Source: Naegleria gruberi (lineage: Eukaryota). From it: a stretch of 64,000 nucleotides of DNA. Below are positions 19,146 to 61,108 of the stretch, piece by piece. Location: NCBI GenBank assembly GCA_000004985.1, contig GG738910.1. One strand, written 5' to 3'. The position numbers were made by a program, and so were the translations under genes. Within the stretch, counting starts at the first letter, position 1. Every line of letters begins with the position of its first letter. The notes under the pieces are model-generated. The model saw nothing but the letters and a program-made list of their open reading frames with translations, was not told the origin of the DNA and did not search any database.

Positions 19146-20312
19146 ATGTCTGAACCAACTGCTATTGATATTACTCAAATTCCACCTCAAATTCATCATA
19201 CAAAAGTGGCCTTAATTTCTGGTGTAACTGGACAGGACGGTTCTTACCTCGCAGAATTGCTCTTGGAAAAGGGATACACCGTTTACGGTATTATTAGACG
19301 TTCATCATCATTCAATACCGGTAGAGTTGAACACTTGTGTAAGGACATGCACGTTCTTTCTTCCAGTATGTTATTTAAATTCATGATTAATACTAAAATT
19401 TAGATAGGATTCAAGCTTGTTTATGGTGATTTGACTGATACTGGGAATCTTATTTCCATAATATCAAAGATTAAGCCTGATGAAATTTATAATCTCGGTG
19501 CTCAATCTCATGTTAAAGTCAGCTTTGAGATGCCTGAATACACTGCTAATGTTGATGCTGTTGGTACATTGAGAATGTTGGAAGCTATTCGTGCTTGTGG
19601 ATTAGAAAAGAAGACAAGATTTTATCAAGCTAGTACTTCTGAATTGTATGGTTTGGTTCAAGAAATCCCCCAAAAAGAAACCACTCCTTTCTATCCTCGT
19701 TCTCCTTATGCTTGTGCAAAGTTGTATAGTTACTGGATTGTCATTAATTATAGAGAAGCTTACAACATGTTTGCTTTGAACGGAATTCTTTTCAATCACG
19801 AAAGTATTAGAAGAGGACCAACATTTGTAACCAGAAAGATCACTATGGCTGTTGCTCGTATTCATCTTGGATTGCAAGATTGTTTGTATTTGGGTAATTT
19901 GGATGCTGAAAGAGATTGGGGGCATGCCAAGGATTATGTTAAAGCTATGTGGTTGATGCTTCAACAAGAAAAGCCAGCCGATTACTGTGTTGCCACTGGT
20001 GAGAAACACAAGGTTAGAGAATTTGTTGAAAAATCTTTTGCTGTTCTCGGAAGGAGGGTTGAATGGAAAGGAACACCAGGTACAGTTGATGAATACGGAG
20101 AAGTGGACGGTATTGTTAGAGTTAAAGTAGATCCTAGTTATTTCAGACCAACCGAAGTTGAACTCTTGATTGGTGATCCAACAAAGGCAGAAACTGAATT
20201 AGGATGGAACAGAAATGTTGGTTTTGATGAATTGGTGAAGGGAATGGTAGAAGGAGATGTTGAACTTTTACAAAAGGATGATGTTGAACTTGTTAAGAAG
20301 CAGTATCACTAA
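19146..20312 (+). CDS. gmd: GDP-mannose 4,6-dehydratase; join(19146..19365,19408..20312), 42-nt intron GTATGT..ATAG
   Basis: Track ORFs 19146..19403 and 19431..20312 are in the same frame, separated by a TAG inside a GTATGT...AG segment. Splicing gives ...[31 protein letters not shown] blocks seen: [62 protein letters not shown]. Confidence 0.93.
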
Positions 20313-27190: not shown

Positions 27191-29057
27191 ATGTCAGGGG
27201 AACACCAAGCTCTGTCTCCAACGTCATCAGACTCTTCTGTGCCCACAATACAAATTCTACCACAAAAGGTATCATCACTACAAGATGACGATATGGATTT
27301 TAGCATTCGTACTCATCACTCTCTCAACACACCATTAACTTCTCCTAATTCTCCTTCCATGTCCTCTACCATTTCAACTCCTTCCTCAGAACCCTATCAT
27401 CCCAGCCTCATTCTCCAATCAGAACTTCCTCTCTCTCATATTAAAGTGGTGAGGAATCGTGAGGAAATTCTCTCTCCTTGTGTTTCTGCTGGCAGACATC
27501 ATCATCACATACCAGGTTCAGCATCATCTCTTGGTGGAGGAAGCACATTTGGTTCATCAACATCATTGAATGGCTTGTTAGACAATGAAGATTCTAGTCC
27601 CACAGATATCATGTCCTATAATGTGCCTCCACCAACCATTGTACCTCCATCAACATTCATAGAACCAATAACAAAGAGTGGAGTAGTGCCATGTGGTAGT
27701 GTTGATGATAATAATAATACTGACGACCATCATACAACAACATCCCTCGAAGCAGCTGCTGAAGAACTTCTTCATACGTTGGAAACTTCAAATAATCCCA
27801 AGTCATTAGAGGCTGCCATAACAACATTCATTGAACAGGAGACCACTAGAAGAAGATCTACTGTTGATAAGGAGGATATTGCAATACTACAGGAAATTGC
27901 TGCAGCCTCTTCTCAATTGGCTTCTAATACAACAACAACGGAAGAAAAAATTGAAACTCTTTCCGAAGTAGTACCAAGAAGGCTAACCATTACTTCATCA
28001 TCTGAAGAAATTAATAGAAATGAGGAGGTAAACAATAACTACAATACACTATCATTAGAAGCTTCATCAACAAATAATAACAAACCATTTAGATTCATGC
28101 AAAAAAGACCATCCTTTATTAATCCAGAATTGATGAGTATGCTCTTTTCTTCGTTATTATCCCTTCAGGATTTAAAACCGAGTGATAATCAGGTGGCTGG
28201 ACATGGACAAAAGGACGGAGAAGAACATTTAGTGGTTCGTCACTTGAGAGACAAAATTTACAAGCCAATTAATACAAAATCGAAACGTGCTTTTGATGAA
28301 GTCAAATTCTATGAACAACAGGCTCCAAAAATACCACTTTTAGAGCCTTTTCTGCCCAAATATCATGGTGTTCAGACAGTGAAGGAGAATGACCAACAAT
28401 TTTTGGTTTTGGAGGATTTAACTGCACCTTTCACAAATCCGAGCTTGTTGGATATTAGAATGGGAAGGAGAGTTTATGGAGATGATGCCAGTTTGGAAAA
28501 GATTAAAATGTTTGAAGAAAAGTACATTTATCAAAAAGAGTTAGGTTTTGGCTTTAGTAAGTATTATTGATTGATTTTTGATATTAATTTACAACATCCT
28601 AAAAGGTGGCATGAAGGTTTACAATACTGATCCAGAATTTTCTAAAATCAACAAGAGCAAGCACATAACACACAAAGATCAAAAGTATAAAGTCTATGAT
28701 AGATATTGGGGAAGACTATGTAAACCTGGAGAAGAGTCCACTGAGGCACTGGATGCCTTTTTCTTTGATACTTCATATGTAGATAGCGAAGTTGTAGGTA
28801 TCAAGACAGTGAAAAGTATATTGAGTCAATTGAAACAATTGGAAGAGTTATTCAAAACTCATCAATTGATTTTTAGAGTTTACTCGAGTTCACTATTCCT
28901 AGTTTTTGATGCAGATAAAGCAATAGTGAGGATGATTGATTTTGCTCACGTTCACGAAAACAAAGAACCATCAATTGATGAAAATTATCTGTATGGTTTG
29001 TCTAATCTGATTAACTATATTGAGGAGGTATTAAGGCGAAAAGACGCTAGTCTTTGA
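27191..29057 (+). CDS. inositol polyphosphate kinase (IPK family, Kcs1/IP6K-like); join(27191..28556,28606..29057), 49-nt intron GTAAGT..AAAAG
   Basis: PxxxDxKxG motif (PSLLDIRMGRRVYGDD); splice restores LGFGFS|GMKVY; C-terminal SSLLFVFD...IDFAHV (IPK SSLL and IDFAH motifs). Track ORF 27149 starts at GTG; the first ATG is 27191. Confidence 0.8.
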
Positions 29058-29332: not shown

Positions 29333-31308
29333 TTAATTTTCAGAATCACACTCCAGTACCTTTTCTGTAAATAAATCCTCTGAGTCTTGTGTTGTTTCTT
29401 TGGTCTTTACTTCTTTCTCTCCATCACTTTCTAATTTTTCAGTGTTGGGCGATTCCTCGTTGTGTGCAGAAGCTTCTTTCATAACTGAGTCTTCTAATTG
29501 GGATATTGCCATAACTGAGTCACTTTGGCTATTAAATGATTGGTCAACCTGTGTTGGTTGAGGATTTTGCAATAGTTCAAATTCTATTTCTCTTTTTATA
29601 GATTCTCGCTTGGTGGGAATATCGCTTGTTTGGAAAAGCTCAGGTGCATCGAGTGGCAAGTTTTCTATTTTAGTACAAGCAAGAAGTTGGATGTAATGGA
29701 TCATAAATACACCACAATCAACATGGTTATCCTGTTTTGGAAGATTAGCCTTTCCAACAGGGAAATTATCAGCAGTAAAAGTCACTGGTTTTTCGTTTGG
29801 ATTCTCGAATGAGTATCTCTTTGCCAAGAATTCTCTTACACGTTTGGTTGTGTTGGTGGGAATAGCACCCCCCAACGAATCACAATACATCAACATCCTG
29901 GCATCAGCTGGATACTTCTTGGTAAGATCTAATTTTTCTTTTTTTACACTTGTTCCATTAGGATTACAAATAACAATTAAGGACCAGTGCACACTGAATG
30001 AGTTGATTAAAATGTATTAGTATTTAAACTGTATTAATAACATACTTTTCATTCACTGGAATAAATATTAATTTCTTTTCGAATAGAGTAACATTTTTAG
30101 CTATTCTTTCTGCAGCTCTACTTGAATCTTTTTTGAGCAATTGATAAAAGTGAGTATTAAAAATATAAAAATCATTTTTAACTTGTCTAGCCTTTGCTCC
30201 ATGAAACTGCTCCTCTATGTATCTGAAAAGGTTAATTACTGTTGCAATATATTCCACTTACCTCAAATAAAAATCAATTATATTATCATTTAAGAATTCA
30301 TCCGGTTCCAATCTTGAAATATCACGTAATGTTATCTGAATGCTATACTTGCTAAGGACAACTTTATCCAAATCCAAGTTGGCTCTGACAGATTTTGTTT
30401 TGGATCGTGTCACATGGTGTTTTGTTACAATGTCAGTATCTGAAATGTCCTCACTATCTGAAGATGATAGTTCTTGTTTTGTTTTTTCCACAACTTTTTT
30501 AATTTTCTTTGTAGGAGGTTTTTCAGGCGAATTATCTGTCACCTTTTCTTCAATTTTTCTCTTTTTCTCTTTCAAAGACTTTAGGTCCTTTTTATGACTT
30601 ATTGTCTCGATATTATTCACTTCGTCTTCAGAAAGCTCGTATTCACTATCATTTTTGATTATCTTTTTGTTTTTCTTGGGAGAGAGTAATTGCTTTTCTT
30701 CCCTTACCCTGTTCACAAATTCACAAGGAGTAAACTTCTCCCCTGGAATATTACAGGCAATGTCTGTCGTTGTTGGCCTTTCGGCTGTTATTTCTCCATA
30801 AGGTTCGAAAAAATTGTTAAAATTCGAAACTGAAAATTTGGTTTTAGGCTTGAAACAAACACCCCATTTCGGATGAGAATCAATATCCTGGACTGGGGCA
30901 ATACTATTCGAATAAGTTAATCCGAAAACATTCGCAGAAGAATTGTACCAAATTTTTGAAATATACTCCTTTTCAAGTCTTGCACCAATCCAACCCATAC
31001 CCTCCTTGATAAAGAATTTAATACATTCATCTGTAAATTCCATAGTTTTATATTCACTAGAATATTCGTATCCGATACAAATTGCTCCAAATTTTAAAAA
31101 TTCATCATTCTTTTTTTTTGTATTTACAAATCCTGCATCCTTGTCGGGAGTTGTTATCAAATTTAATTCCTTTTTTTTTCTCCCTGGCTTTCCTGTTGAT
31201 TTTCCTGTTGTTGCTTTTTTAAATTGGTCTTGAAACTATTCATAATAATTAACCAGTAAGAATAAAAGGCTGAAATCAATAAAATGTTAAACTTACATCA
31301 GACATCAT
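29333..31308 (-). CDS. ulp1: Ulp1/SENP-family SUMO protease (peptidase C48), 4 exons: complement(join(29333..29993,30046..30222,30262..31235,31297..31308))
   Basis: Three track ORFs on the same strand are separated by in-frame stops that sit inside GTAAGT/GTATGT...YAG segments (introns 61, 39, 52 nt). Spliced product contains IFNTHFYQLL, LIFIPVNENVHWSLIVI (catalytic His) and DCGVFMIHY (catalytic Cys). 12-nt first exon ATGATGTCTGAT. Confidence 0.85.
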
Positions 31309-31659: not shown

Positions 31660-33751
31660 ATGGAAAAGAAAATATTAACAAAAGCTACTTCCGAAACAGA
31701 AGAACCAACTCCAGGTTGGATGTTTCACCATATTGCCAGTACTACAAAAAAGTCTCCTCAAGCTTGTGAGGAAACAACAAATTGGTTGATGAAGAGATTA
31801 ACCCACAAAAATCCTCACGTAAAAAAGAAAGTTTTGTTGATTATAAAGAGCGTTGCTCAATCTGGTGATGCTGAATTTGCCAGAATAATAGTCAAGAGAA
31901 GCGAAGAAATCAAACAATACGCTAGTAAGTATTAGATTTTCGAAAATAACGTTTAATAACTGATGCATCACAATTTTAGATTTCAGAGGAGATAAAGATC
32001 CACTTCATGGTGATGCTTTGAATCAAAGTATTAGAACAGCAGCATCCCAGGCAATTGAAGCAATATTTGAAAGAAATGAAAGTGGTTCCAAGTTTAAAGT
32101 AAATATGGATTTGAATGGTTCCGATCAAAATTCTGGAAGAATTGGAACTGCACCAACTGGAGGATTTGGTGTTTTTGGAGGAGGAGTAGGAAGTTCAGAC
32201 TATGGTAACGACTATACACACGCTTCCGATACTGAAAATAGACCAGCTTTTGGTGGAGGTTTTGGACCTAATACTCCTGCTTTTGGTGGAGGTTTTGGTT
32301 CAAATACTGTTAATAATCAAGCTTCTAATGCAGGAAGAGTTGGTACCATGACTGGTATTGGTAGTACATTTGCGAATGAGCAAATAGCAAAACAAAATCA
32401 ATCTGCTGGTTGGACTGGTACTCTCAGTAATTTAACAAACTACCTCCCAACTTGGTCTAAACAGAAGGATACTCACGGTATGGATAAAAACAATTTCCCA
32501 GGACTAATTGCTGGATCAGAATACGAAGGTGCTGATGCAAATGGCTCATATGTTGGAGTTATTCTTCCACCTGGAGGATCTTCTGGTCTATCTGGATCAT
32601 CTCATGTTCCTGGAAAGAAACTTTGGGAAACTGATACCCCTTCAACAAAATCAACTAACAATACAGTGGGAGAGTTAGAAATTAAGGTGGTGAATGAATT
32701 TACTTCACCAGGAGGTATTCGTAAACCTGCTCCAACGAAGAAGGAATGTACAGACTTTGCTCAAAAGTGTTCATCGCTCAACTTATTGCAAGTAGCCGAA
32801 TTATTGAATCAAAAATTGGATGATCATGAATGGATTGTAAGACTTAAGGCTCTGTATGGTATTGAGGCTCTTTTGAAGGCTGAAAATAAGGCTGTCACTG
32901 AATTTTATTCCGAAAATTGTGAAAATATCTTAAAACAATCAGAATCCGTGCAAGAAAGTGTTAGACAACAAGCAGAAAAGGTTGCCAAATTGTTGAACTT
33001 TGATGAAGGAGATGATGCTCAGTATGGACCAACACTTCTCGAAGATTTTGGAGGCATGTCCATTTCAACCTCCTCTCCATCTACCTCTAAAACTACTAGA
33101 AAACAAATCAATTTTGTTCCATCCAGTGGTTCTACCACAACCACTAACAATAACTCAAATGATGCCTCTGACTTCTTTGATATGATGAATGATAATTCAA
33201 CAAGTAATTCAGGTGATGATATATTAAGCGGATTTGAGGTGAAGAACTACCAACCAACACCAAAGCAACCTGTTCAACAAAAGACAACAAGAACACCAAC
33301 AGAGACAAAGCCAAGAGTACAACCAAGTCAAAAGACTCCATCAAGTGCAACAACCCCAACCAAATCAGATTTGTTGGACCTTGATACCTTACTCTCTGCT
33401 CCAACAATTCCCTCCCAAAAGACAACTACCACTACACCAACATCCATTCCATACACTGTCCCTGTACAACAACCAATCTATGCTATTCCAACATATCCAC
33501 CAATGTACCAACCATATGGCGTAGTACCTCAACCTGGAGTACCAATTTACCCTGTTTATCAACAACCTTATTATCCACCACAAACCTTTGCAAATGTCGG
33601 AACAATTCCAAACAGATCAAATCCTCCTCCAATTATGCCAAAAGGTTCACAAAGTCAAGCTTTTGATTTTATCAATAATACTCAACCTCAAGAGCAACCA
33701 AAAGAAGAAAAGGATTCTTTTGATTTTGTTAAGCAAGTTTATCTTAAATAA
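31660..33751 (+). CDS. ENTH/VHS-domain protein (epsin-R/tepsin-like) with long Pro/Gln/Thr-rich tail; join(31660..31924,31980..33751), 55-nt intron GTAAGT..TTTTAG
   Basis: N-terminal helices KNPHVKKKVLLIIKSVAQSGDAEFARIIVKRSEEIKQYA then F-RGDKDPLHGDALNQSIRTAA resemble the ENTH core. The splice removes the in-frame TAG at 31933. Confidence 0.6.
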
Positions 33752-42860: not shown

Positions 42861-42935
42861 TAAAATCCGTTGCAGTACTACTAATGGGACTGAATTGCAA
42901 TAAATTTAGCACTAGATATTAAAAAAAAAACAAAA

Positions 42936-45073
42936 ATGGTGCTAGAGGAATTAACAGATGCCGAAAGACCTTCATCACAAAAGAAGAAAAAGGAAAACAA
43001 CCACTTCCACCCGATGCTATGGGCCATTCGGGAGAAGTCTATCATCCTATTTTGACAAGGTCTGCAGGCTATTCAAATGAACAACAGAAACAGGAACACA
43101 CTTTTCTTGTGAGTCATACACATGGCTTTGAACAAATTGTGAAGGATGAAATTCTTTTACTTTTTGACTCATTAAATTTGATGTAATTTAATTGGTATGA
43201 AAAATTAAATCCGAAAATTAGGGTCCACGATTATCCAACAACTATTGCTGGTAAATTTATGAAAAAGGTGGAAAACTCGGTACCAAACTACCTAAAAACT
43301 TTGAGTGAGAGTCACAAAGTGACATTTGTTAATTTTTCTAATTTATTTGAAATTGAATTTTTATATTCTAGAAATGGATTATTAATATTTAATGTTTCTT
43401 CTAAAGGAAGTGATAATAATTTATTTATGGAAAATCTAGTTTATTTAGTCTGCCATTTAAATGCTATTCCTAGTATTGATTTTGTGTATTCATTTATTTG
43501 CATTGTTCCTGATATACCCTTTGATAAAGAGACTACAATGCCAATATTTGCAGAAACTATACCAAAAAGAGAACAAGATACTCAAACATAGAAACAATCC
43601 TTTGAACTATTCGAAAAATTATATTGCAAAAAGTTTGAAAAACAAAATCTTTATTCCAAGGATACCAACTTTAGGGCTACTGGTGTAAGAAAACAAACAA
43701 GTATTTTGAAGCATGACTACAAATCAATGGATATGGCCGCTGAGTATGGATATGGAATTGGGGAAACAATTTGCAAGGACATGAAGGTTAACCTGAAAAA
43801 GTATGACCTTGACATGTTAATTTATTTGGATATTGATAGAGTGTTTATAGGAATGCTATTGTCCCCTCCATTACATGCTTTAGAAGAATTGAAAATTAGT
43901 TCAGCATGTTCAGGACATGGTGGTTGCATCTCACCAAATAATTGTTCATGTGTCTCTGGATATTATGGAAGTGATTGTAGCCAATTTGATTGTTATGGAA
44001 CTGCCTCCACAAATACATCAACATGTACTAATCACGGTAGTTGTATATCCCCAAATAACTGTTCCTGCTTATCAGACTATTATGGAAAAGAGTGTACTCA
44101 ATATGATTGTTTTGGAACTATTTCAACAAATGGTTCAGTATGTTCTGGACACGGTACCTGTCTCTCACCAAATAACTGCTCATGCTTAGCTGGATATTAT
44201 GGAAATGATTGTAGTGAATTTGATTGTTACGAAACTGCCTCCACAAATGCATCAGCATGTTCTGGACATGGTGGTTGCATCTCACCAAATAATTGTTCTT
44301 GTTTAGATGGATACTACGGAAATGTTTGTAGTCAATTTGATTGTTATGGAACTGCCTCAACAAGACATTTTTCTTTGAATAATCAAGTTATTGATAGAAA
44401 TCTCAGTGAGGACGAATTGAATGAATTGAATTCATGTGATTTGATTTATTCATACACTAAACAAGATATTAGATTAACCTTCGGAAAATCTATCTTGAAA
44501 CCTCAAACAAGTTACATGCTTTGGAAAACTTTACTGATGGAAAATTCAATTTTACGAGACAAATTATTCCAACAATCACAATTAGTTACTTTTGTTGATC
44601 CATTTGCAGGAAGTGGTACTCTTTCACTCTCACTTAATTATCTCTTCACTGATAATGATCCTAAAGTTCAACTTTATAATATTGATTTCAATCTAGATGA
44701 AGTGAGTGTTATGAAGGATAATTGCAGCAAAAACAGAAATAATCATATTTTAAATTGTGATTCTAGATTCTTACCTTTTAGAAATGAAAGCATTGATGTT
44801 GTTATATCAGATATGCCATTTGGAGTTTTATGTGAAAATCACTCTAGAAACTCAAAGGTCTACCCAAAGATTGTAAAACAACTCGAAAGAATTGTTAAGC
44901 CTGATGGAATTGTAATGCTGTTGACAATTGAACTTACCTTACTGGAATCTCAACTGAATGCCAGAAATCGGTGGACATTCACAACACAAAAAGTAACACT
45001 TGGAGATTTAGGTAAGGAATCCAAGCAACCATTTACATTGGCAAGAAGAAACCTCCACAAAATAAATTTATGA
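42936..45073 (+). pseudogene. methyltransferase copy B (inverted paralog of the 1..1492 gene), disrupted by a 1-nt deletion (~42995) and a TGG>TAG nonsense (43589..43591) and carrying a 465-bp in-frame insertion; a C-terminal ORF 43706..45073 remains open
   Basis: Direct nucleotide comparison with the reverse complement of 1..1492. About 97% identity from ~42975 onward. Copy A reads through where copy B has stops. DPFAGSGT/DMPFG methyltransferase motifs are intact in the open C-terminal ORF. Confidence 0.6.
43898..44362 (+). repeat. 465-bp array of ~4 tandem 117-bp (39-aa) EGF-like/tenascin-type cysteine repeats inserted in frame into methyltransferase copy B
   Basis: Repeat unit (S/T)ACSGHGGCISPNNCSC(L/V)xGYYGxDCSQFDCYGTASTN(T/A)S, iterated about 4 times. 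First and fourth units are near-identical at the nt level. The sequence is absent from copy A, which goes straight from ...gaaaatt to agacattttt. Confidence 0.75.
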
Positions 45074-45303: not shown

Positions 45304-46399
45304 ATGATTTTCTTAGAAGCTGGAAACAAAATTATTCAAGAAATCCTTCTCAAGCAATTTGATGCTTCGTACGTATTTGATGTTTTTAGCTTGATGTTTT
45401 ACTAACAACACCACAACATTTAATCTTTAATCTATTCTTTATACTGTGTAAATTAATATAACAACAACATACCATGATTCAATTTATCATCGCTCACATA
45501 TTAACAACAAAAACAGAACAAGACAACCAAGCGTCCATGTTAACGGAGGTGATTTTGATGGTACTAAATTTGTTATTCAATCTGATGCTGGTAATAAGAA
45601 CCTTCTCACCTTGTCCATCTATGTTCATGGTGAAAAGGAATTTAATCAATATGGAGGTATTGAATTGGTCAAGAAAACTTTACCAGGATTGGATGTTAAA
45701 GCACCAGGTTTAACAGTCGATGATCAAAAACATACTTTCACAGTTACTATTGATGTTGAAAAGGAAGAAAAGAATAAGGACAAGTGGTTAAAGGAATTGC
45801 CACGTGTCAAAACTACATATATGAGTGCTGTCTTTTTGCAAGCCATGGATAAACACGCAAAGGGAGAACAATTCGAACCAATCAAAGTTCCATACAGACC
45901 AGATGAAAATATTTACATTATTTCTTATAAGGGCAAGTCTTTGGTTGTTGTTTATAGTATTTTGTTCAGAGATCCTGATGATGTCGTTTTTGCCAATGGT
46001 TTCTTGTGTGAATTCAAGGATGCCAAGAAGGATCGTGCTCTCAATGCTGCTCCAAATATGAACTTTTCACAAGGTCAATTGGCTGGTGAATTGGTTGACG
46101 TAAAGAGTGTTACTGAACCAAAGGACGAAAGAACTTTGAAGAAGGAAGGTTGGGGCTTTGTTTCTATTGGTTTGTTGGATAATCATACCAAGGCTGATAA
46201 GCAATTGAATACTGCTGAATTATTGCTTGGTTTCCGTTCATATTTGCACTACCATTTGAAGTGTATGAAGGCTTACATGCACATTCGTATGAGAGAATCT
46301 GTTGAAAAGTTAATGTTGAACTTGAATGCTGCTAAGGATTTGAGCGGTAAGAAGACTGAAAAGAAGACCATGTCTGGTAGAACTTTCAAACAACAATAA
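45304..46399 (+). CDS. arpc2: Arp2/3 complex subunit 2 (ARPC2/p34-Arc); join(45304..45368,45517..46399), 148-nt intron GTACGT..TACTAAC..CAG
   Basis: Exon 1 MIFLEAGNKIIQEILLKQFDAS matches the ARPC2 N-terminus ([23 protein letters not shown]). Exon 2 ...DFDGTKFVIQS...LSIYVHGEKEF...GFRSYLHYHLKCMKAYMHIRMR aligns with the conserved core and the RxYLHYHIKCSKAY block. The first AG after the TACTAAC branch point is the acceptor. Confidence 0.9.
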
Positions 46400-46739
46400 C
46401 TTGTTTGAGTGAGAGAACATAATGACATCAGTGTCATTCACATCTTTTTGTAGTTATAAAATCACCTTATTTATTTATTTATAATTAAGTAGACTCATAT
46501 TGATGATTATTCTCAATCATATCTTCCACATTTGTATGGGGAATACCCTAACGTTTATAAAAACAAAATACTGTTTTACATGCACAAAAGCTTGTCAAGG
46601 TTGCAACTTCTCCCTCAACTATAATATAATATGGAAACTGGATAGAAAAAAGTACTGAAATCTACATAGATTTTAAACAATGCAAATATCTAAGCAAGTT
46701 ATATTGTTCCTTAATGATATTGAGGTCTCATTCTACTTT

Positions 46740-47060
46740 TCCTTTTACTAGTTCCTCGAATTGAGACTTTTTCTCCCATCCTAATTCAGTTTCAGCCTTT
46801 GTTGTTGGGTCACTAATAAACTTGTGTTGCAGGTCTGAAAGTTTTCATTCCTTTGTATGGCCCAATCTCTTTTGAACAGCCCTACAAATCAAAGAGTACA
46901 CCGTATGGTAAGATTAAGAAAAAGGCCAAAATTCTCAAAGATCTCACGCCCACTCCTTCTCGTCCCTCGTTCAAGCTTAGTAGAGGATCGGACCGTCCGT
47001 ACCTGATCATATCATTTCCTCATTCCATGCTCCTAGCCGACTTTGGGATGTTGAAATGTC
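46740..47060 (-). pseudogene. decayed fragment of a second GDP-mannose 4,6-dehydratase gene (C-terminal ~100 codons) with frameshifts and stops
   Basis: Minus-strand translation gives ...[29 protein letters not shown], versus ...[31 protein letters not shown] in the intact GMD at 20.2 kb. Upstream pieces seen: FRPATQVY ([13 protein letters not shown]) and REIFENFGLFLN ([15 protein letters not shown]), read in shifted frames. The region is locally GC-rich. Confidence 0.6.
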
Positions 47061-47145
47061 CAAGTCTGCCTTAATACCACTCCCTTCAATTCAACAAACA
47101 GATCATAGGCTTAAAAAATCAAGTTTCTTGAAATTAACTACAAAC

Positions 47146-48683
47146 ATGAAAGAAAAAATGCAAAAGAATCAATTGATTATCACGTTGGTTGTCTTATTGA
47201 GTGTGGTCGCTTGTACTGTCTATGGTTTCTCAGCTAATCCATGCACATTCTGTCAAACAAGTTTTGATATGGTTGCTACAGATAAGAGTAAGTATGATAT
47301 TTCTTTTTGAATGGTCATGAACTCGTTGCATGAATAATCCATTCAATCCTCAACCGATTAATCCAACTCCAGTGAAGCAATTAGTTCCTCCAGTTGCTCC
47401 ACAAAACGCAAGTGAAACTGCCATCTTTTCTGATAGTAACGGAAATGCCACAACTAATAGTTCTTCGATCTTGAATGGCACCTTGGTAACTTCACACTCA
47501 ACTCAACTCATAGTCTTCATATTAATGGAAGCATTGAACACGCCAACGGTTCTATTACAGTTGGTAATTTGACCTTTGAAGGTGATTTCCATGCCAGTGG
47601 AATTATTGCCATGATTAATGACTCTTTGATTGTTGATGGTTCATCTTTAATCAATGGTTCAATTGATCACGGATTGATTCAAGTAAATGGTAGTGTTGCT
47701 TCTAATGGTTCCTTAATGATTTCCATCTCAACTTGGTTCTCTAATGGGTCTCTCTTAATTAATGGATCGTTCGATACTGATGAAGGAAATGCTTTTGAAT
47801 TGAATGGTACTTTGGGTCATAGTGGTGGTTTCGTCTATTCAAACCAGTCTTGGAACACTAATGGTTCCTTGACCATTCAAGGTGATTTGATTCTTCCTTC
47901 CATGGACGAATTCAGTGGTACTCTTCAAGTTAATGGTACTGTTAATTCCTCAATCAGTGGTGATTTGAGCATCATCGGTTCCATGCTTTTAGATGGTTCT
48001 TTCAATGGAAATGAAACTGATTTCAACATGAACGGTATTTTGACACACAACGGTTTGTTCTTCCAAGATAATGAAACTGTTCACATTGCTGGTTCATTGG
48101 TTTTTGAAGGTAACATGTCTCCCATCCAACAACTCACTTAATGGAACTGCTGTTATCGATGGTACCATGAAATCCTCAGATGGTCAATTGTATATTAATG
48201 GTTCAATGATTATCAGTGGTACATTCTTGAGTAATGAAAATCTTGAATTGAGTGGTTATTTGGCTAATAACGGTTCATTCTTAATTGATAACTCCTCCAT
48301 GACAAGTAATGGTTCTCGAAATGACTGGTACCATTTCATTGCCATGCTCAACCTTAATTGATGGTAATTTGACTGTCAATGGTAACTTGAACTCAACAGT
48401 TGGAAGTATGTTAACTATCAATGGAACTACCCATGTTAATGGTAACTTGACATTGAGCCATGCCTTACTCATCACTGGTAACTTGACAATTCACGGAACT
48501 GTTCATTTGAATAACACAAATGTTGCAATCATTGTTCAAGGGGGCGATTTCACATCTGTTGGTGGTATTGTTGCTAATAACACTGCTGATGGTGCTTTGA
48601 GAGCTGACAATGTTTTAACTTTCATGAATATTACTGATATGACTTTCACTAGTATCAAGGTGAAGAGTACAATGAAGTAATTG
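47146..48683 (+). pseudogene. secreted Asn/Gly/Ser-rich beta-helix-like repeat protein gene, interrupted by at least three frame changes (possible pseudogene or sequence errors)
   Basis: Signal peptide MKEKMQKNQLIITLVVLLSVVACTVYG, then possible intron GTAAGT (47288) to AG (47372). The same repeat family (..NGSLxIxGxL.., dense N-x-S/T sequons) then continues through four consecutive track ORFs (47330, 47569, 48071, 48309) that each use a different frame. The switches fall at a CTCAA microsatellite, a CCC run and near TCTCGA. Confidence 0.45.
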
Positions 48684-48938: not shown

Positions 48939-49853
48939 TCATTGAAAAATTGAAATTTCTTTGGATTTGTTATTAATAACATAGAGTAAACCAGTTCTCT
49001 TATCAACAAACAATCCAAAATTTCTTGAAAAGGCATTAGAATCTTCAAATGTTTTTACAATTGAGAAATCAAACAATCTAATGACAAAAATTCGATGATT
49101 TTCAGTATCCGATAAGTAAACTAATCCAGATTCCTTCTCATAAAATATTGAATAGGCAGTTGAACACTTGGGAATGACCACTCTTCTTTTAGAGATCCAA
49201 TTATTTTCTTGCTTTTTGAAAATTTCCAAAGATTGTTGATTGGATGTTAATATTTCACTTTCAGATAAAAATTCAATTCCATATCCATTAACTAAACTAA
49301 TCCCATCTTCACCTTCATCCTTTCCTGTTTCCTTATTTGCTTTACAAACTACTGATCTATTGTAATCAAGAAAAAACACTTGATTTCCCATCAAATCCAA
49401 CCCCCAAATATTCGTGTTTGATTTTTTACATTCCCACACAATTCCTTCCTTTCCTTCCATCAAATCCTTCACTCTAATTTTAATAATTCCTCCACTTGTA
49501 CTTGCATAAATAAATTCCTCTGAATTCTCATTCACCAATCGCAAACAATGAAACACAAATTCCTTATACTTGACAGCAAATAAAAGGGAATTTTCAGAGG
49601 TGACAACTTTTGATTTATCGAAAATCATTAATGATGATCCACCAACTACAATAATTACGTCGAAACAATTAGAAATTGCAATATCAAAGCTCGGCTCGAA
49701 ATTAGCAACATTCAACGTTCGTACAAGTTTAAAATTTAAAGAAAATTGGAGGAATTTGGAAGCGAGTGATTGCTTTAAATATTTAAATAATTGATCAATG
49801 TTGTTGTCTTCCGAGGAGGATTTTAGATCAATTAGTGAAATGATTGTTGACAT
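48939..49853 (-). CDS. NHL-repeat/beta-propeller-like protein
   Basis: Real ATG. NHL-type strands seen: YVSDTENHRIFVI, LLYVINNKSKEISIF, IIKIRVKD. Confidence 0.5.
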   Translation of the reverse strand: MSTIISLIDLKSSSEDNNIDQLFKYLKQSLASKFLQFSLNFKLVRTLNVANFEPSFDIAISNCFDVIIVVGGSSLMIFDKSKVVTSENSLLFAVKYKEFVFHCLRLVNENSEEFIYASTSGGIIKIRVKDLMEGKEGIVWECKKSNTNIWGLDLMGNQVFFLDYNRSVVCKANKETGKDEGEDGISLVNGYGIEFLSESEILTSNQQSLEIFKKQENNWISKRRVVIPKCSTAYSIFYEKESGLVYLSDTENHRIFVIRLFDFSIVKTFEDSNAFSRNFGLFVDKRTGLLYVINNKSKEISIFQ

Positions 49854-50097: not shown

Positions 50098-50910
50098 ATG
50101 AAAAAAGAAATCTCCCTTAGCACATTTTTTAAGTAAGTGCCTTGTTAAATTATTAAAAACTGAAAATGTTTAAGGGGAGAGAAGAAACGTAAAATAGATT
50201 GCGTTTCGGAAGAGTTTGAGGATGAAGAGGGAGTTTGGGTCCTGATATATGGAACATTTGGAATGTTAAATTGGCCTGGTTTGTATGATAAGAAGAATCA
50301 CAAGGCAATAATATTGAATGTCGATGATTTAGGTGATTATGAGGTATTATCGGTCCTTGATTTTTCATTATGTGATTCGGATGTTTTCATGACCAAAGTA
50401 CCTGATTATCTTCAAAGTTCTTGGAAGAGTGCTTTGGAATTAACGAATAATAATACAAAAGAGGAATTAATAATGAAACACGTTTTTGAAAAACAAGAAA
50501 AGACTGTTATTGATAGAATAGAGGCAGAGAACAATGATGTTGCTCCTGACTTGCCACTAAGTACAAAATCTTTTCTTGCAAAAGGTTTGATTTCTCTTAA
50601 ACCAACAGGCATAGTGTTTGATGATAATAGGGACATGTTAAAAGTTGAAGAAGATATGGAGTGTGTGTTTGATAGGGACAAAATAGAAAATGTTGATTGT
50701 CCTATTGAGTTCTCCAAAAAACTGTTCCTCTCCTACAAAAACAACAATCCAACTCCATTACTGTCACCACTGTATGCATTACAGAACATGTATTTTGAAC
50801 AAAATTCAGAAATGAACTATCAGGAAACTCTTTCTATTCTGTTTGCCTATCTCATTAGTATTTCAAATGGAAACTTGGCCTCTACTGAGTATGTTCACCA
50901 ATTCTTTTAA
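50098..50910 (+). CDS. hypothetical protein (256 aa model); join(50098..50132,50175..50910), 42-nt intron GTAAGT..TTTAAG
   Basis: Track ORF 50263.. is open upstream to 50164 without an ATG. Upstream ATGAAAAAAGAAATCTCCCTTAGCACATTTTTTAA|GTAAGT splices in frame (MKKEISLSTFFK GEKKRKIDC...). Confidence 0.5.
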
Positions 50911-50969
50911 ATTCCAACTTTAACTCTTTTAGAAATGTCAGACAACAATCACCTGAAAATCAAACTAGA

Positions 50970-54602: not shown

Positions 54603-56401
54603 TTAATGTTCACACAAGGAAAATTCTCTTTCATATTGTTCGTTTTTGTCATCTCTCTTATACTTTCTGTGATCCATGAGAATTTCACGAGTTTCATTTG
54701 CTTGTTCCTCAGTCATTTGTGGAATGAAGGGAATGACATTTTTCACAAGCACTGGATAGGTAATCTTTTGAGCTAACGAGAAGGAATTTGAAATAATGAC
54801 ATCTCTTCTCTGATTATCAATGTGACTTGTTGAGATAATTGGTGCATCTGGATCAACAAAGAAAAAGACAAGGATTTTTCTAGTTGCTGTCTTTTTTGGG
54901 TCTTCAGGGAAGAAATGTTTCACTCTGTGTTGATTTGTATTTGGGAAAATGATGCATTTACCTTCAGTTGTCTTGACCTTTCCAATTACTTCACATAATT
55001 TGTCTCCGTCATGAATCTGAATTTCCAATTAATTTCCAAAATAAAAAGTCAACTTACACCAAATCGTTCCCAAGCTTGCAAAACATTATCCTGTTCAATG
55101 TAATAAAAGTTTTCCTCACGTAACGATTGTCTAAATTCCAAGAAACTTTGCTTAATATTTTGACATTCATAATAGAAAATGCCAGTTGCCACAATATTCT
55201 CAGTATCTCCCTCAGTATGCCAAGTTCCTCCTGGATAGAAACCTTGTTCTGGAGTGACAATTACATTAGCTGCCTTGACAATTACTTGAACCTTATCCTT
55301 AATGTTAACAAAATTGTTGACAGGTTCAATAAAATGTGATAAGACTTCACAAATGGTATCTTGCAAATCCTTTTGAGTAATTGGATTAACATTGTTAATA
55401 TAAGATAGAGGAGTAACCTTATTATCACTATCCACTTTGAAATCAGTTGGTATCCATTGAGTTTCAGCAACTCCAACACGAACTTCACCTTTCTTTTCAT
55501 TCAAAACACTCAACTCTTTCGAATAGCAATACAAAGAAGGATGAATAATATCCAAAACTTGTTGATTTGAACCTGGATGCCAATCTAACTTGTCAACTGG
55601 AGTATTTTCCACAATTTCGTTCAATTGTTTCTTTAACCTTTCAGTCAAATCTGCAGGAATTAAATTTTCCTTTTCGAGACAAACATAGCTTGAAACACCT
55701 CTTTCATCAAATGCACAATGGGCACAGGGACACAAACAGAATTTTGTAGATCTTGGGTAATAACCTTCTTCTTCTTCTTCTTCGTCATCTTCAATTATTT
55801 CGTCATCATCTTCAATCACTTCGTCTTCATTTTCATTCATTTCGTCTTCATTGTCTTCATCTTCCTCATTTTCGTCTAGTTTCTTTTTAATTTTCTGGTC
55901 AGCATTACCTTCTGCTTTCTTTTTTTCCTCCTCTTGAACTTTCTTCTTTTTCTTTTCAGGTTCTTCTTCAGTACTTTCGAATAATGTTTCATTCTCATCA
56001 ATTGTCTTCTCCTCTCTATCACTCCAATTTTTAATTTTCTTTGGATTGGCATTGCAACAACCACAACAACGTTTCCTATAGGTAGAAATTTCAAGTAAAT
56101 CGTTCAAAATATCCATCGCTACGAGGAAACTACTTTCGGATATTCCTTGTGAAATAGTTTCCTTTCTCCATTTTGCAACAATGGTATTGAATATGATCTT
56201 TTCTTGCCAATTGTCCTTGTCTAGTATTTGGCGAACAATCTTTTCGGCATCTAGTGGATTGACCTGAACTCTTGGATGTCTGTGTGAAATAAATTCTTCT
56301 TCCTCTTGAGAAGATTCTTCAAATTCTTCTTCGTCTTCTTCGTTACCAGAGATTTGGCTGGTTGGCTCTTCTTCGGTATCGCTGAGTGATCGTTTCGACA
56401 T
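54603..56401 (-). CDS. DUF4246-like (putative 2OG-Fe(II)-oxygenase-superfamily) protein with acidic low-complexity insert; complement(join(54603..55016,55058..56401)), 41-nt intron GTAAGT..AATTCAG
   Basis: Track ORFs 55049..56401 and 54603..55028 are joined by removing GTAAGTTGAC...AATTCAG, giving ...QAWERFG|IHDGDKLCEV... in phase. Motifs WHTEG, TNQHRVKHF and Cys clusters CCGCC/CLCPCAHC are as in fungal DUF4246 proteins. Confidence 0.55.
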
Positions 56402-60023: not shown

Positions 60024-61108
60024 ATGGCAAGACAACAACGAACCAATTCTTCGAAACAGGGAGGACGCAGAAGAAGATATTCCAATGATGGGGACTCGAG
60101 AGAGGAATATAGCAGCACTACAACAACAACAAATAATGGTGTTGCTCATACTAATAACACTACTTCAGTTGCTGCTGCTGTGAGTTCTCAAGCTTATTCT
60201 TCTAAAAAGTCTGAAGATTGTAAGGGAACTTCTCCTGCAAGAGATGTTGGCGTTGTTCAAAATAACAATTCCACTATTAATAATAATAACAATAATACTA
60301 CCACCACTACTTCCCAATCATCATCAATTCCTTCCTCTACAACAAATTCTTCAACCACCTCCACTACTTCTAAAGATGAAGTTATCCCAGCTAAACTCTC
60401 CCAAGAAAATTCATATTTTGGATTAAACCAAGATGAATTCATCAATGCCTTCTCTTCTGTAATTCAAGAAATTTCATCACAAGGAGACATGATCCCTATT
60501 GAAGCCCAACAAAAAACACAATTCCACACCTCTCTTCCACCAAGAATATCACTTCGTAAATATTTGGACAGAATTATCAAGTTTGCTTTCTGTTCTGCTG
60601 AATGTTATATTCTCAGGTATGTTGTTTCAACGAAATTCATAATTATTCATCATCTTTCTACAGTCTTGTATATATGGATAGGTTGGTACAATCGAATCCT
60701 AATTTTGTGATTAGCAGCTTGTCTATTCATCGTTTACTCATCACCAGTATTATGGTTGCTGCCAAGTTCTTTGATGACAAGTTCTATAGCAATGAATACT
60801 ATGCCAATATTGGTGGTATCAAGAAGGAGGAAATTAATAAGTTGGAGATTGAATTTCTCTACATGATTAACTTTTCTCTCCACTTCCAACCACCTGAATT
60901 TGAGCAGTATAAGGAAGAGTTTATTGTTGCTCCAGCCCTCAGAGAGAGAGCTCTCAAGAAACGAACAACAGCTGTTGGTTCTTCTAAACAGTACTCTGTG
61001 GGACAATCACATCATAGTTATGGTGATGAAGTGAGCATTGAGGAATCATGTATATCCATATGTTCAGAACAACAACAATATCCACGACATTCGTCTCCCA
61101 TCCATTAA
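60024..61108 (+). CDS. PHO80-like cyclin; join(60024..60616,60664..61108), 47-nt intron GTATGT..CTACAG (start codon choice uncertain; frame open from 59598)
   Basis: Two overlapping track ORFs in different frames are reconciled by the intron: ...KYLDRIIKFAFCSAECYIL|SLVYMDRLVQSNPNFVISSLSIHRLLITSIMVAAKFFDDKFYSNEYYANIGGIKKEEINKLEIEFL. This is the PHO80/cyclin-U box. I chose ATG 60024 (aaagtacaATGG). The upstream part of the ORF is GC-richer with rare codons. Confidence 0.75.

What the first reader, a model, noticed from the sequence alone, without database searches (positions are those of the whole stretch)
47146..48683. Secreted N-glycosylation-sequon-rich beta-helix-like repeat gene read in four successive frames
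A signal peptide (47146) is followed by about 450 codons of NGS/NGT-rich repeats (..NGSLxIxGxL..). The repeat continuity is carried successively by four track ORFs (47330, 47569, 48071, 48309), each in a different frame. The switches fall at simple-sequence sites (a CTCAA repeat, a CCC run, near TCTCGA). The gene is either a pseudogene decaying next to the GMD relic or a locus with assembly indels. If intact it would be a heavily N-glycosylated secreted or cell-surface protein.
Basis: seen in the sequence. Interest (0 to 1): 0.5.

Follow-up and report, generated by a model that had tools for sequence, protein, structure and literature searches.

The report
Frame-broken orphan secreted repeat gene
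This is a Naegleria gruberi-specific gene for a secreted, sugar-site-rich beta-helix protein whose reading frame is broken three times in the assembly, and the public gene model hides the breaks behind implausible mini-introns; it is most likely a young pseudogene or a sequencing artefact, not new biology.

Summary
A signal-peptide exon (47146-47287) is followed by about 435 codons of NxS/T-rich repeats. The coding track runs in frame 1, then 2, 1, 2, 0 (position mod 3).

The window is Naegleria gruberi. The locus is the annotated gene NAEGRDRAFT_81705 (XP_002670928.1, 394 aa, "predicted protein").

- **First switch:** an ordinary 85-nt GTAAGT...CAG intron (47288-47372).
- **Other three switches** (about 47482-47520, 48110-48123, 48312-48324): frame-breaking indels with no credible intron.
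- **Public model:** it bridges them with a 273-nt intron that skips coding-like sequence, and with 31- and 34-nt GTTCA-donor "introns". All ten credible introns in the window are at least 39 nt with GTA[ACT]GT donors.
- **Internal template:** three tandem units of about 75 aa (40-41% identical) align colinearly across two of the shifts, and the model's "introns" encode conserved unit residues.

The protein is an orphan with no relatives in 1.8 billion representative proteins. It has a hexapeptide period, and a low-confidence model folds as a beta-helix. It gives a partial Pfam bactofilin hit.

No other gene in the window has an unexplained frameshift. I cannot separate real indels (favoured, about 0.5) from local assembly error (about 0.3) without reads. 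Interest is low.

The parts
47146..47287 (+). Exon 1. ATG at 47146; the public model starts at the in-frame ATG 47158. It has a K-rich n-region, the hydrophobic core LIITLVVLLSVVACTVYG (signal peptide), and then ...CTFCQTSFDMVATDK. It ends in codon phase 1.
   Evidence: Kyte-Doolittle scan: the only segment above 1.6 is residues 5-33.
47288..47372 (+). Intron 1, 85 nt, GTAAGT...TTAATCCAACTCCAG. It has no internal AG and shifts the frame from mod 1 to mod 2.
   Evidence: The donor type and first-AG rule match the other credible introns in the window. Alternative in-phase acceptors lie at 47384 and 47393.
47373..47485 (+). Coding segment a (frame mod 2): KQLVPPVAPQNASETAIFSDSNGNATTNSSSILNGTL, with 4 sequons in 37 aa. 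If read on without correction, it stops at 47570-47572, giving a 113-aa product.
47482..47520 (+). FS1 window. The shift is from mod 2 to mod 1: a loss of 1 (or 4, 7, 10) nt, or a gain of 2 or 5 nt. The unit motif LNGxL...GxFxxxNxS is split between the two frames at 47485/47486. (ACTCA)3 lies at 47496-47510.
   Evidence: There is no GTA[ACT]GT donor here.
47486..48118 (+). Coding segment b (frame mod 1, open 47461-48138), about 210 codons. It includes a divergent unit and the intact unit U2 (47746-47976).
   Evidence: (60.4 bits, 0.27 per codon).
48110..48123 (+). FS2 window. The shift is from mod 1 to mod 2: a gain of 1 nt (for example in CCC 48121-48123) or a loss of 2 nt (best alignment at 48117-48118).
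   Evidence: and the unit alignment (LP/PS conserved across the site).
48119..48316 (+). Coding segment c (frame mod 2, open 48044-48358): ...PSNNSLNGTAVIDGTMKSSDGQLYINGSMIISGTFLSNENLELSGYLANNGSFLIDNSSMTSNGS.
48312..48324 (+). FS3 window. The shift is from mod 2 to mod 0: a loss of 2 nt (TC in TTCTC, which gives gapless NGSLEMTGT against NGSLTIQGD of U2) or a gain of 1 nt.
48317..48680 (+). Coding segment d (frame mod 0), C-terminal 121 aa plus stop TAA 48678-48680. It has no C-terminal hydrophobic tail, so no TM or GPI signal.
47746..48422 (+). Three tandem units of about 75 aa: U2 47746-47976, U3 47977-48199 (spans FS2), U4 48200-48422 (spans FS3). They are 40-41% identical with 20 invariant columns.
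   Evidence: E = 2e-12; E = 2e-24 and 1e-18 without composition correction.
48312..48515 (+). Stretch matching Pfam Bactofilin PF04519 (profile positions 6-66 of 98), with a hexapeptide pattern xIxGNL.
   Evidence: E = 1.9e-10, 41.3 bits, cutoff 27.9. One search lists the precomputed PF04519 hit on P0001.
48079..48109 (+). 31-nt 'intron' of the public model (GTTCAC...GAAG). In the upstream frame it encodes VHIAGSLVFEG, which is homologous to WNTNGSLTIQG and MTSNGSLEMTG of the sister units.
48273..48306 (+). 34-nt 'intron' of the public model (GTTCAT...CAAG). In the upstream frame it encodes GSFLIDNSSMTS, which is homologous to GGFVYSNQSWNT and GLFFQDNETVHI.
46713..46823 (-). Neighbouring relic of the C-terminus of GDP-mannose 4,6-dehydratase, with an in-frame stop. 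This is context, not part of the gene.
   Evidence: PF16363 positions 308-330 of 332, E = 0.026; 5uzh_A N. fowleri GMD 308-343 of 345, E = 1.2e-5.

Best explanation
The locus is a lineage-specific (orphan) Naegleria gruberi gene, NAEGRDRAFT_81705.

**Original structure.**
- A short exon encoding a signal peptide.
- One 85-nt spliceosomal intron.
- One long exon encoding about 435 residues of hexapeptide-period, N-glycosylation-sequon-rich beta-solenoid, partly built by triplication of a unit of about 75 aa.

The intact product would enter the ER and be heavily N-glycosylated. It has no membrane anchor, so it would be released or deposited on the cell or cyst surface as a rigid beta-helical rod.

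**State in the assembled sequence.** The long exon carries three small frame-breaking indels, with shifts of -1, +1 and +1. The spliced mRNA would terminate at 47570-47572 after 113 residues.

**Favoured reading.** The indels are real, and this is a recently inactivated gene (or a null allele) sitting beside another decayed fragment, the GMD relic. The 394-aa public protein would then be an artefact of a gene caller that patched the frameshifts with one over-long and two impossibly small introns.

**Shown:** frame structure, intron 1, internal-unit colinearity, orphan status, sequon enrichment, periodicity.

**Inferred:** secretion and glycosylation, beta-helix fold (low-confidence model), and that the indels are biological rather than sequencing errors.
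For: **Identity.** The only relative is P0001, 'predicted protein [Naegleria gruberi]'. All 394 of its residues map exactly onto the window. GC of 33% fits N. gruberi NEG-M (PMC8296547).

**The shifts are not introns.**
- No GT..AG pair of the right length at FS1-3 has a GTA[ACT]GT donor.
- All ten credible introns in the window have that donor. Their lengths are 39, 41, 42, 44, 47, 49, 52, 55, 85 and 147 nt. Nine use the first or second AG after the donor; in the 147-nt ARPC2 intron the acceptor is the first AG after the TACTAAC branch site.
- The only overlapping high-scoring open-frame pairs in the window that lack such an intron are the three in this gene.

**The sequence was once one ORF.**
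- Units U2, U3 and U4 align colinearly across FS2 and FS3.
- Residues encoded inside the model's 31- and 34-nt 'introns' are 8 of 23 identical to the sister unit, against 9.4% expected (P = 8e-4).
- The stretch skipped by the model's 273-nt intron holds 8 sequons in 63 codons and the split unit motif LNGTL|GNFTLNS.

**The lesions cluster.** About 41 kb of ORFs of 250 codons or more elsewhere in the window are uninterrupted. Every other frame junction is explained by a consensus intron. A uniform assembly error rate is therefore excluded.

**Neighbourhood.** A truncated GMD relic with an in-frame stop lies about 320 nt upstream.

**Protein nature.**
- One N-terminal hydrophobic segment only.
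- 37 sequons.
- Period-6 autocorrelation: G 0.37, hydrophobic 0.24.
- All-beta AF2 model.
Against: - No independent reads, assembly, transcript or orthologue could be obtained, so real indels cannot be told from local low-coverage Sanger error.
- The reconstructed 483 codons contain no in-frame stop, and their codon usage is as good as that of live genes. That is mildly unexpected for a sequence old enough to have collected three neutral indels, and it fits sequencing error or very recent inactivation.
- The three lesions span about 830 nt, roughly one Sanger read.
- Orphan status means no dN/dS test is possible.
- The structure model is low confidence (mean pLDDT 57.9, single sequence).
Confidence: 0.5

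Rival explanations
1. Assembly or sequencing artefact. The gene is intact in the organism, and the three indels are consensus errors in a locally low-coverage or low-quality stretch of the draft assembly. The true product is the roughly 483-aa secreted glycoprotein.
For: - There is no in-frame stop in 483 reconstructed codons, and coding statistics are normal.
- Repeat-unit conservation is undiminished around the sites.
- Candidate sites include a C run and a TC dinucleotide run.
- The lesions span about 830 nt, about one Sanger read (inference).
- JGI-type callers commonly patch such errors with mini-introns (general knowledge).
Against: - The rest of the window shows no unexplained frameshift in about 41 kb of long ORFs. 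An error explanation therefore needs a special local cause.
- Three consensus indels within 0.85 kb is far above the usual error rate of an 8x Sanger assembly (general knowledge).
- The public protein model shows that the assembly it was called on has the same frames.
Confidence: 0.3
2. The public model is right. The frame changes are bridged by splicing, with introns at 47288-47560 (273 nt), 48079-48109 (31 nt) and 48273-48306 (34 nt), giving a functional 394-aa protein. These could be mini-introns recently carved out of coding repeats.
For: - All three are GT..AG and of the right length class, and the product has no stop.
- Genuine introns here are very short, down to 39 nt.
- The 273-nt intron uses the consensus GTAAGT donor.
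Against: - The donors GTTCAC and GTTCAT do not fit the GTA[ACT]GT seen in 10 of 10 credible introns. Lengths of 31 and 34 nt are below the shortest credible intron.
- Both 'introns' stay open in the upstream frame and encode residues conserved in the sister units (8 of 23 identities, P = 8e-4).
- The 273-nt intron would bypass 9 internal AGs, including the first AG at 47372 that follows a TTAAT branch-like site. It would also discard 63 sequon-rich codons.
- GT..AG pairs of suitable length are abundant by chance: 10 to 18 candidates per site.
Confidence: 0.1
3. Recoding. The mRNA is read through the shifts by programmed ribosomal frameshifting or by insertional or deletional RNA editing.
For: None specific. 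It is only that the downstream frames remain open and coding-like.
Against: - It would need three events of two different directions in one mRNA.
- No slippery heptamer, stop-codon context or downstream structure was noted at the sites (sequence).
- No such nuclear system is known in Heterolobosea (general knowledge).
Confidence: 0.02
4. It is not a gene at all. The open frames would be a by-product of biased, repeat-derived DNA.
For: It is an orphan with no homologue in 1.84 billion representatives, 5.8 billion clustered proteins or the metagenome contigs.
Against: - There is no DNA-level tandem repeat.
- Periodicity and unit conservation exist at protein level only.
- Codon usage is gene-like.
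- A canonical signal peptide is followed by a consensus intron in the correct phase.
- Antisense and off frames are full of stops.
Confidence: 0.03

Closest known systems
NAEGRDRAFT_81705 / XP_002670928.1 / EFC38184.1 / UniProt D2VYC7 ('predicted protein', Naegleria gruberi NEG-M)
   Same: It is the same locus. All 394 residues map at 100% identity to window segments 47158-47287, 47561-48078, 48110-48272 and 48307-48677.
   Different: - The public model omits about 90 residues of coding-like sequence.
- It changes residues at two junctions (VTCLP, VMVLE).
- It does this through a 273-nt intron and two non-consensus introns of 31 and 34 nt.
- My reading is a 483-aa ancestral ORF with one 85-nt intron and three indels.
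Bactofilin domain (Pfam PF04519 / DUF583), bacterial cytoskeletal beta-helix
   Same: - The Pfam score is above the gathering threshold over 61 of 98 profile positions.
- Strands have a hexapeptide period, about 18 residues per turn.
   Different: - This protein has a signal peptide, 37 sequons and more than 340 residues of continuous repeats, instead of one cytoplasmic domain of about 110 aa with disordered tails.
- No individual bactofilin is retrieved by phmmer against 1.84 billion proteins or against PDB sequences.
- The resemblance may be convergent repeat periodicity.
Right-handed parallel beta-helix adhesins and passenger domains (pertactin 2iou_H, Vag8 7akv_G, UpaB 6bea_A, EtpA 8vba_A), and fungal Awp1/Awp3b wall adhesins (7o9q, 7o9p)
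- Like them, this protein is predicted to be extracellular and rod-like. Some of them (TibA, Awp) are heavily glycosylated.
   Different: - Sequence identity is only 10-18%, and Foldseek finds nothing significant.
- There is no autotransporter barrel or TPS domain.
- The model has low confidence (pLDDT 57.9).
- The match is a fold-class analogy only.
Unitary pseudogenes or sequencing-error frameshifts masked by gene-caller mini-introns
   Same: The model places GT..AG 'introns' of length 3n+1 exactly where the frame changes, and these 'introns' remain open and homologous to coding sequence.
   Different: Nothing unusual for this class. The only special point is that the internal triplication supplies its own template for a frameshift-aware alignment.

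Membership tests
Bactofilin (PF04519) | Profile HMM score above the Pfam gathering threshold | tested here: met
   41.3 bits against a cutoff of 27.9, E = 1.9e-10. The match is partial (profile positions 6-66 of 98). PF04519 is also precomputed for P0001.
Bactofilin (PF04519) | Detectable pairwise homology to bona fide bactofilins | tested here: not met
   exhaustive phmmer over 1.84 billion representatives returns only four low-complexity repeat proteins (E = 2.6e-5 to 2e-4); no bactofilin chain among the PDB sequence hits.
Bactofilin (PF04519) | Cytoplasmic protein: one beta-helix domain of about 110 aa flanked by short disordered tails, with no secretion signal | tested here: not met
   There is an N-terminal hydrophobic signal-like segment, more than 340 aa of continuous repeats and 37 sequons.
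Spliceosomal introns of this genome (applied to the model's 31-nt and 34-nt introns) | GTA[ACT]GT donor and length of at least about 39 nt, as in all credible introns of the window | tested here: not met
   The donors are GTTCAC and GTTCAT, and the lengths are 31 and 34 nt. This compares with 10 of 10 consensus donors at 39-147 nt.
Spliceosomal introns of this genome (applied to the model's 31-nt and 34-nt introns) | Intron sequence is not homologous to coding sequence | tested here: not met
   In the upstream frame they encode residues 8 of 23 identical to the sister unit (P = 8e-4), the same level as the flanking exons.
Spliceosomal introns of this genome (applied to 47288-47372) | Consensus donor, first AG as acceptor, and correct phase linking two coding frames | tested here: met
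   GTAAGT donor, 85 nt, 0 internal AG, and it links mod 1 to mod 2 without a stop.
Pseudogene | Frame-disrupting lesions relative to an intact homologous template | tested here: met
   The intact unit U2 serves as the template. U3 and U4 need a frame change at 48110-48123 and 48312-48324 to stay aligned.
Pseudogene | Lesions present in the organism's DNA (independent reads) | not testable with these tools
   No reads or second assembly are reachable. Look-ups and scans came back empty.
Pseudogene | Relaxed selective constraint (dN/dS near 1, accumulated stops) | tested here: inconclusive
   There are no orthologues for dN/dS. There are zero in-frame stops and codon usage is normal, which argues for very recent inactivation or for error.
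Secreted N-glycoprotein | ER signal peptide plus N-x-S/T sequons | tested here: met
   Hydrophobic core at residues 10-28, with no other hydrophobic segment. 37 sequons against 12.6 +/- 2.9 expected. Actual cleavage and glycosylation are not testable here.
Right-handed parallel beta-helix (pertactin-like) fold | Three-stranded coils stacked into a long solenoid | tested here: inconclusive

The most novel reading that the evidence does not exclude
The two mini-'introns' (31 and 34 nt, GTTCA donors) and the 273-nt intron of the public model are really spliced in vivo. Under this reading, Naegleria has recently 'intronized' pieces of a coding repeat, using cryptic non-consensus splice sites to rescue frameshift mutations and keep a secreted beta-helix glycoprotein functional.
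Probability: 0.05. Interest if true: 0.6.

Novelty: new member of a known kind. Interest (0 to 1): 0.2.

Why it matters
The value is mainly for annotation.

- **A public protein is probably wrong.** XP_002670928.1 / D2VYC7, which also carries a Pfam bactofilin label, is probably a gene-caller construct. It hides three frameshifts and should not be used as evidence for a "eukaryotic bactofilin".
- **A cheap test for similar cases.** Compare a model's introns with the local intron consensus, and align internal repeat units across the suspect sites. This can flag similar patched models in the N. gruberi annotation.
- **If the gene proves intact.** It would be a species-specific, heavily N-glycosylated extracellular beta-helix. 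That would make it a candidate surface or cyst-wall component, of modest interest.

Tried and rejected
**Independent copies of the locus**
- Exact-protein look-ups of the neighbouring ORFs, two flanking ORFs and P0001 itself found nothing on record. No second assembly or reads were available.

**Relatives of the protein**
- The word-indexed search with the reconstruction found only P0001.
- The exhaustive HMMER search with P0001 gave only low-complexity hits.
- A profile of the three 75-aa units gave nothing.
- A back-translated scan of metagenome contigs gave nothing.
- tblastn found no paralogue elsewhere in the window.

**Literature**
- No paper mentions the gene IDs or Naegleria bactofilin. 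Nothing useful was found on Naegleria frameshifts or pseudogenes.

**Canonical-intron rescue of FS1-3**
- I enumerated all in-phase, stop-free GT..AG pairs and none has a consensus donor.
- The 28-nt GTAACT...CATAG candidate at FS1 has the wrong length class (3n+1 where 3n+2 is needed).

**Structure and fold**
- Foldseek against PDB gave no significant hit.
- The afdb50 library was unavailable.
- PDB sequence search with the C-terminal part gave only chance-level hits.

**Other rejected ideas**
- I suspected a frameshift in the control gene ARPC2. It is a normal 147-nt intron with a GTACGT donor and a TACTAAC branch site.
- The frame-switch sites could not be pinned to single nucleotides. Scores differ by only a few BLOSUM units across 10-40 nt.
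Full report
**1. What is in the sequence**

The window is AT-rich (about 33% GC), gene-dense, and carries long ORFs in the standard genetic code.

- An ATG at 47146 opens a K-rich n-region followed by the hydrophobic core LIITLVVLLSVVACTVYG.
- Downstream, an N/G/S/T/L-rich repeat track runs in position-mod-3 frames 1, 2, 1, 2, 0.
- The track ends at TAA 48678-48680.

The named ORFs (47330, 47569, 48071, 48309) exist. Each is in a different frame from its predecessor, although only three frames are involved.

**2. Identity of the locus**

A search with my frame-corrected 483-aa reconstruction returned a single protein, P0001.
- It is annotated as "predicted protein [Naegleria gruberi]".
- It is 394 aa, with identifiers NAEGRDRAFT_81705, XP_002670928.1, EFC38184.1 and D2VYC7.

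Every residue of P0001 maps at 100% identity to the window. The window is therefore N. gruberi, consistent with the 33% GC reported for strain NEG-M (PMC8296547).

The public model reaches one reading frame by using three introns:
- 47288-47560 (273 nt)
- 48079-48109 (31 nt, GTTCAC...GAAG)
- 48273-48306 (34 nt, GTTCAT...CAAG)

The assembly on which that model was called must therefore have the same frame structure as the window.

**3. Which switches are introns**

I collected the credible introns of the window. These are places where two codon-usage-positive open frames on one strand are joined in phase. One is additionally checked against a conserved protein: ARPC2, exon MIFLEAGNKIIQEILLKQFDAS joined to TRQPSVHVNGGDFDG.

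| Intron | Strand | Length (nt) |
|---|---|---|
| 19366-19407 | + | 42 |
| 28557-28605 | + | 49 |
| 31925-31979 | + | 55 |
| 50889-50932 | + | 44 |
| 60617-60663 | + | 47 |
| 55017-55057 | - | 41 |
| 30223-30261 | - | 39 |
| 29994-30045 | - | 52 |
| ARPC2, about 45370-45516 | + | 147 |
| 47288-47372 (this gene) | + | 85 |

- All ten have GTA[ACT]GT donors.
- Nine use the first or second AG after the donor. In the 147-nt ARPC2 intron, which has a TACTAAC branch site, the acceptor is the first AG after that site.

The first switch of this gene (mod 1 to mod 2) is such an intron. It reads GTAAGT...TTAATCCAACTCCAG, has no internal AG, and is in the correct phase.

For the other three switches I enumerated every in-phase, stop-free GT..AG pair, and none has a consensus donor. 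In the whole window, the only overlapping pairs of high-scoring open frames that lack a consensus intron are the three in this gene.

**4. Internal template test**

tblastn of the reconstruction against the window revealed an internal duplication (E = 2e-12 with composition correction). BLASTP and MAFFT resolve three tandem units of about 75 aa:
- U2: 47746-47976
- U3: 47977-48199
- U4: 48200-48422

They are 40-41% identical, with 20 invariant columns. The consensus is:

GSMLIxGSFxxNExxFELNGxLxHNGxFxxDNxSxxxNGSLxxxGxxSLPSxxxxxGTLxVNGTxNSSxxGxLxIN

U2 lies wholly in one frame. U3 and U4 stay aligned with it only if the frame is changed at 48110-48123 and 48312-48324 respectively.

The segments that the public model removes as introns encode conserved unit residues in the upstream frame:
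- VHIAGSLVFEG and GSFLIDNSSMTS align to WNTNGSLTIQG / MTSNGSLEMTG and to GGFVYSNQSWNT / GLFFQDNETVHI.
- That is 8 of 23 identities to U2, against 9.4% expected from composition (P = 8e-4). This is the same conservation level as the exons.

The stretch skipped by the model's 273-nt intron also looks coding:
- It contains 8 sequons in 63 codons.
- It contains the unit motif LNGTL|GNFTLNS split between frames 2 and 1 at 47485/47486.

The three segments were therefore once a single ORF, and the model's introns are frameshift patches.

**5. Nature and position of the lesions**

- **FS1** (mod 2 to mod 1). It needs a net loss of 1 nt or a gain of 2 nt. Its position is poorly defined (47482-47520). 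One possibility is a loss of 1 or 10 nt at TTG^GT (47485). The other is gain of one ACTCA unit in (ACTCA)3 at 47496-47510.
- **FS2** (mod 1 to mod 2). It is either an extra C in CCC (48121-48123) or a 2-nt loss near 48117. The 2-nt loss keeps the unit length and the conserved LP.
- **FS3** (mod 2 to mod 0). It is best explained by loss of a TC from TTCTC (48314-48318). This gives gapless NGSLEMTGTISLP against NGSLTIQGDLILP.

As assembled, and after removal of intron 1, translation would stop at 47570-47572 after 113 residues.

**6. What the protein would be**

- **Sequons.** There are 37 in 483 aa, or 7.7 per 100 aa. Other long ORFs in the window have 1.0 per 100 aa, and shuffles give 12.6 +/- 2.9.
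- **Topology.** The single hydrophobic segment is N-terminal, and there is no C-terminal anchor.
- **Periodicity.** Glycine and hydrophobic residues show period-6 autocorrelation with harmonics at 12 and 18-19.
- **Model.** A single-sequence AF2 model is all short beta strands. Mean pLDDT is 57.9 overall and 60-89 in the C-terminal half.
- **Pfam.** There is a partial bactofilin match: 41.3 bits against a cutoff of 27.9, profile positions 6-66 of 98.
- **No real bactofilin is found.** None is retrieved by exhaustive phmmer or PDB sequence search. The signal peptide, sequons and length also contradict the bactofilin architecture.

I treat it as a beta-solenoid of uncertain ancestry, not as a bactofilin family member.

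**7. Orphan status**

The following searches found nothing beyond the protein itself:
- Exhaustive HMMER over 1.84 billion representatives, which returned only four low-complexity hits.
- A profile of the three units against 5.8 billion clustered proteins.
- A back-translated scan of metagenome contigs.
- tblastn for a paralogue elsewhere in the window.

**8. Pseudogene or artefact**

For real indels:
- About 41 kb of long ORFs elsewhere in the window are uninterrupted, and every other frame junction has a consensus intron. Errors are therefore not general.
- Three lesions cluster in 0.85 kb of one orphan gene.
- A truly decayed fragment lies about 320 nt upstream. It is the C-terminal 37 residues of a Naegleria-type GDP-mannose 4,6-dehydratase with an in-frame stop, at 46713-46823 on the minus strand.

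For artefact:
- There is no in-frame stop in 483 codons.
- Codon usage and unit conservation are undiminished.
- The lesions span roughly one Sanger read length.

No reads, second assembly, transcripts or orthologues were reachable, so this cannot be settled here.

My estimates:

| Explanation | Probability |
|---|---|
| Real indels (young pseudogene or null allele) | 0.5 |
| Assembly error | 0.3 |
| Public spliced model correct | 0.1 |
| Not a gene | 0.03 |
| Recoding | 0.02 |
| Other or unassigned | 0.05 |

A Nanopore plus Illumina re-assembly and RNA-seq of N. gruberi exist (PMC12695648) and would decide the question.

**9. Verdict**

- There is one ordinary intron plus three indels, in an already annotated orphan gene whose public model is very probably wrong.
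- This is a known kind of thing: a frameshifted gene masked by a gene caller. Nothing here requires new biology, so interest is low (0.2).
- The only exciting reading left open is genuine splicing of non-consensus 31-34-nt mini-introns carved from coding repeats. I give it about 5%.

Noticed in passing
window 46713-46823 (-), possibly extending to about 47010 in other frames: This is a relic of the C-terminus of GDP-mannose 4,6-dehydratase. The peptide [36 protein letters not shown] matches residues 308-343 of 345 of N. fowleri GMD (5uzh_A, E = 1.2e-5) and the end of Pfam PF16363. It contains an in-frame stop. No N-terminal part is present, so it is a truncated pseudogene fragment between ARPC2 and the repeat gene.
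   Followed up: partly
window 43706-45073 (+) (open frame 43592-45070): One uninterrupted ORF carries four EGF-like domain hits (residues 67-217) followed by an RNA/SAM methyltransferase domain (UPF0020 / Methyltransf_31, residues 272-433). This is an odd extracellular-plus-enzymatic combination. It may be a real fusion, or two genes read through.
   Followed up: no
window-wide: 19366-19407, 28557-28605, 29994-30045(-), 30223-30261(-), 31925-31979, 50889-50932, 55017-55057(-), 60617-60663, about 45370-45516: The credible introns in this window are very short, mostly 39-55 nt. All have GTA[ACT]GT donors, and nearly all use the first or second AG downstream. The 147-nt ARPC2 intron has a yeast-like TACTAAC branch site, followed by an AG-free stretch of about 105 nt before its acceptor.
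   Followed up: partly
window 45305-46399 (+): The Arp2/3 complex subunit ARPC2 (p34-Arc, Pfam E = 1.8e-62) is intact. At first it looked frameshifted, because an out-of-frame ATG ORF (45474-45713) overlaps its second exon. The true first exon is about 45305-45369 (MIFLEAGNKIIQEILLKQFDAS).
   Followed up: yes
window 47056-47145 (+): An in-frame upstream ATG at 47056 would extend the repeat gene's ORF by 30 codons (MSKSALIPLPSIQQTDHRLKKSSFLKLTTN) ahead of the signal peptide. If it were used, the signal sequence would become internal. It is probably 5' UTR.
   Followed up: no
window 48939-49853 (-): The convergent neighbour is a 304-aa ORF with only one weak NHL-repeat hit (E = 2.6e-4). No exact record was found in the contig collection. 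It is probably another poorly characterised Naegleria gene.
   Followed up: no
window 42923-45070 (+): Three open frames in the same frame (42923-43183, 43187-43588, 43592-45070) are separated by single stop codons. The first two have low coding scores, so this may be chance in AT-rich intergenic DNA rather than in-frame stops in a gene.
   Followed up: no
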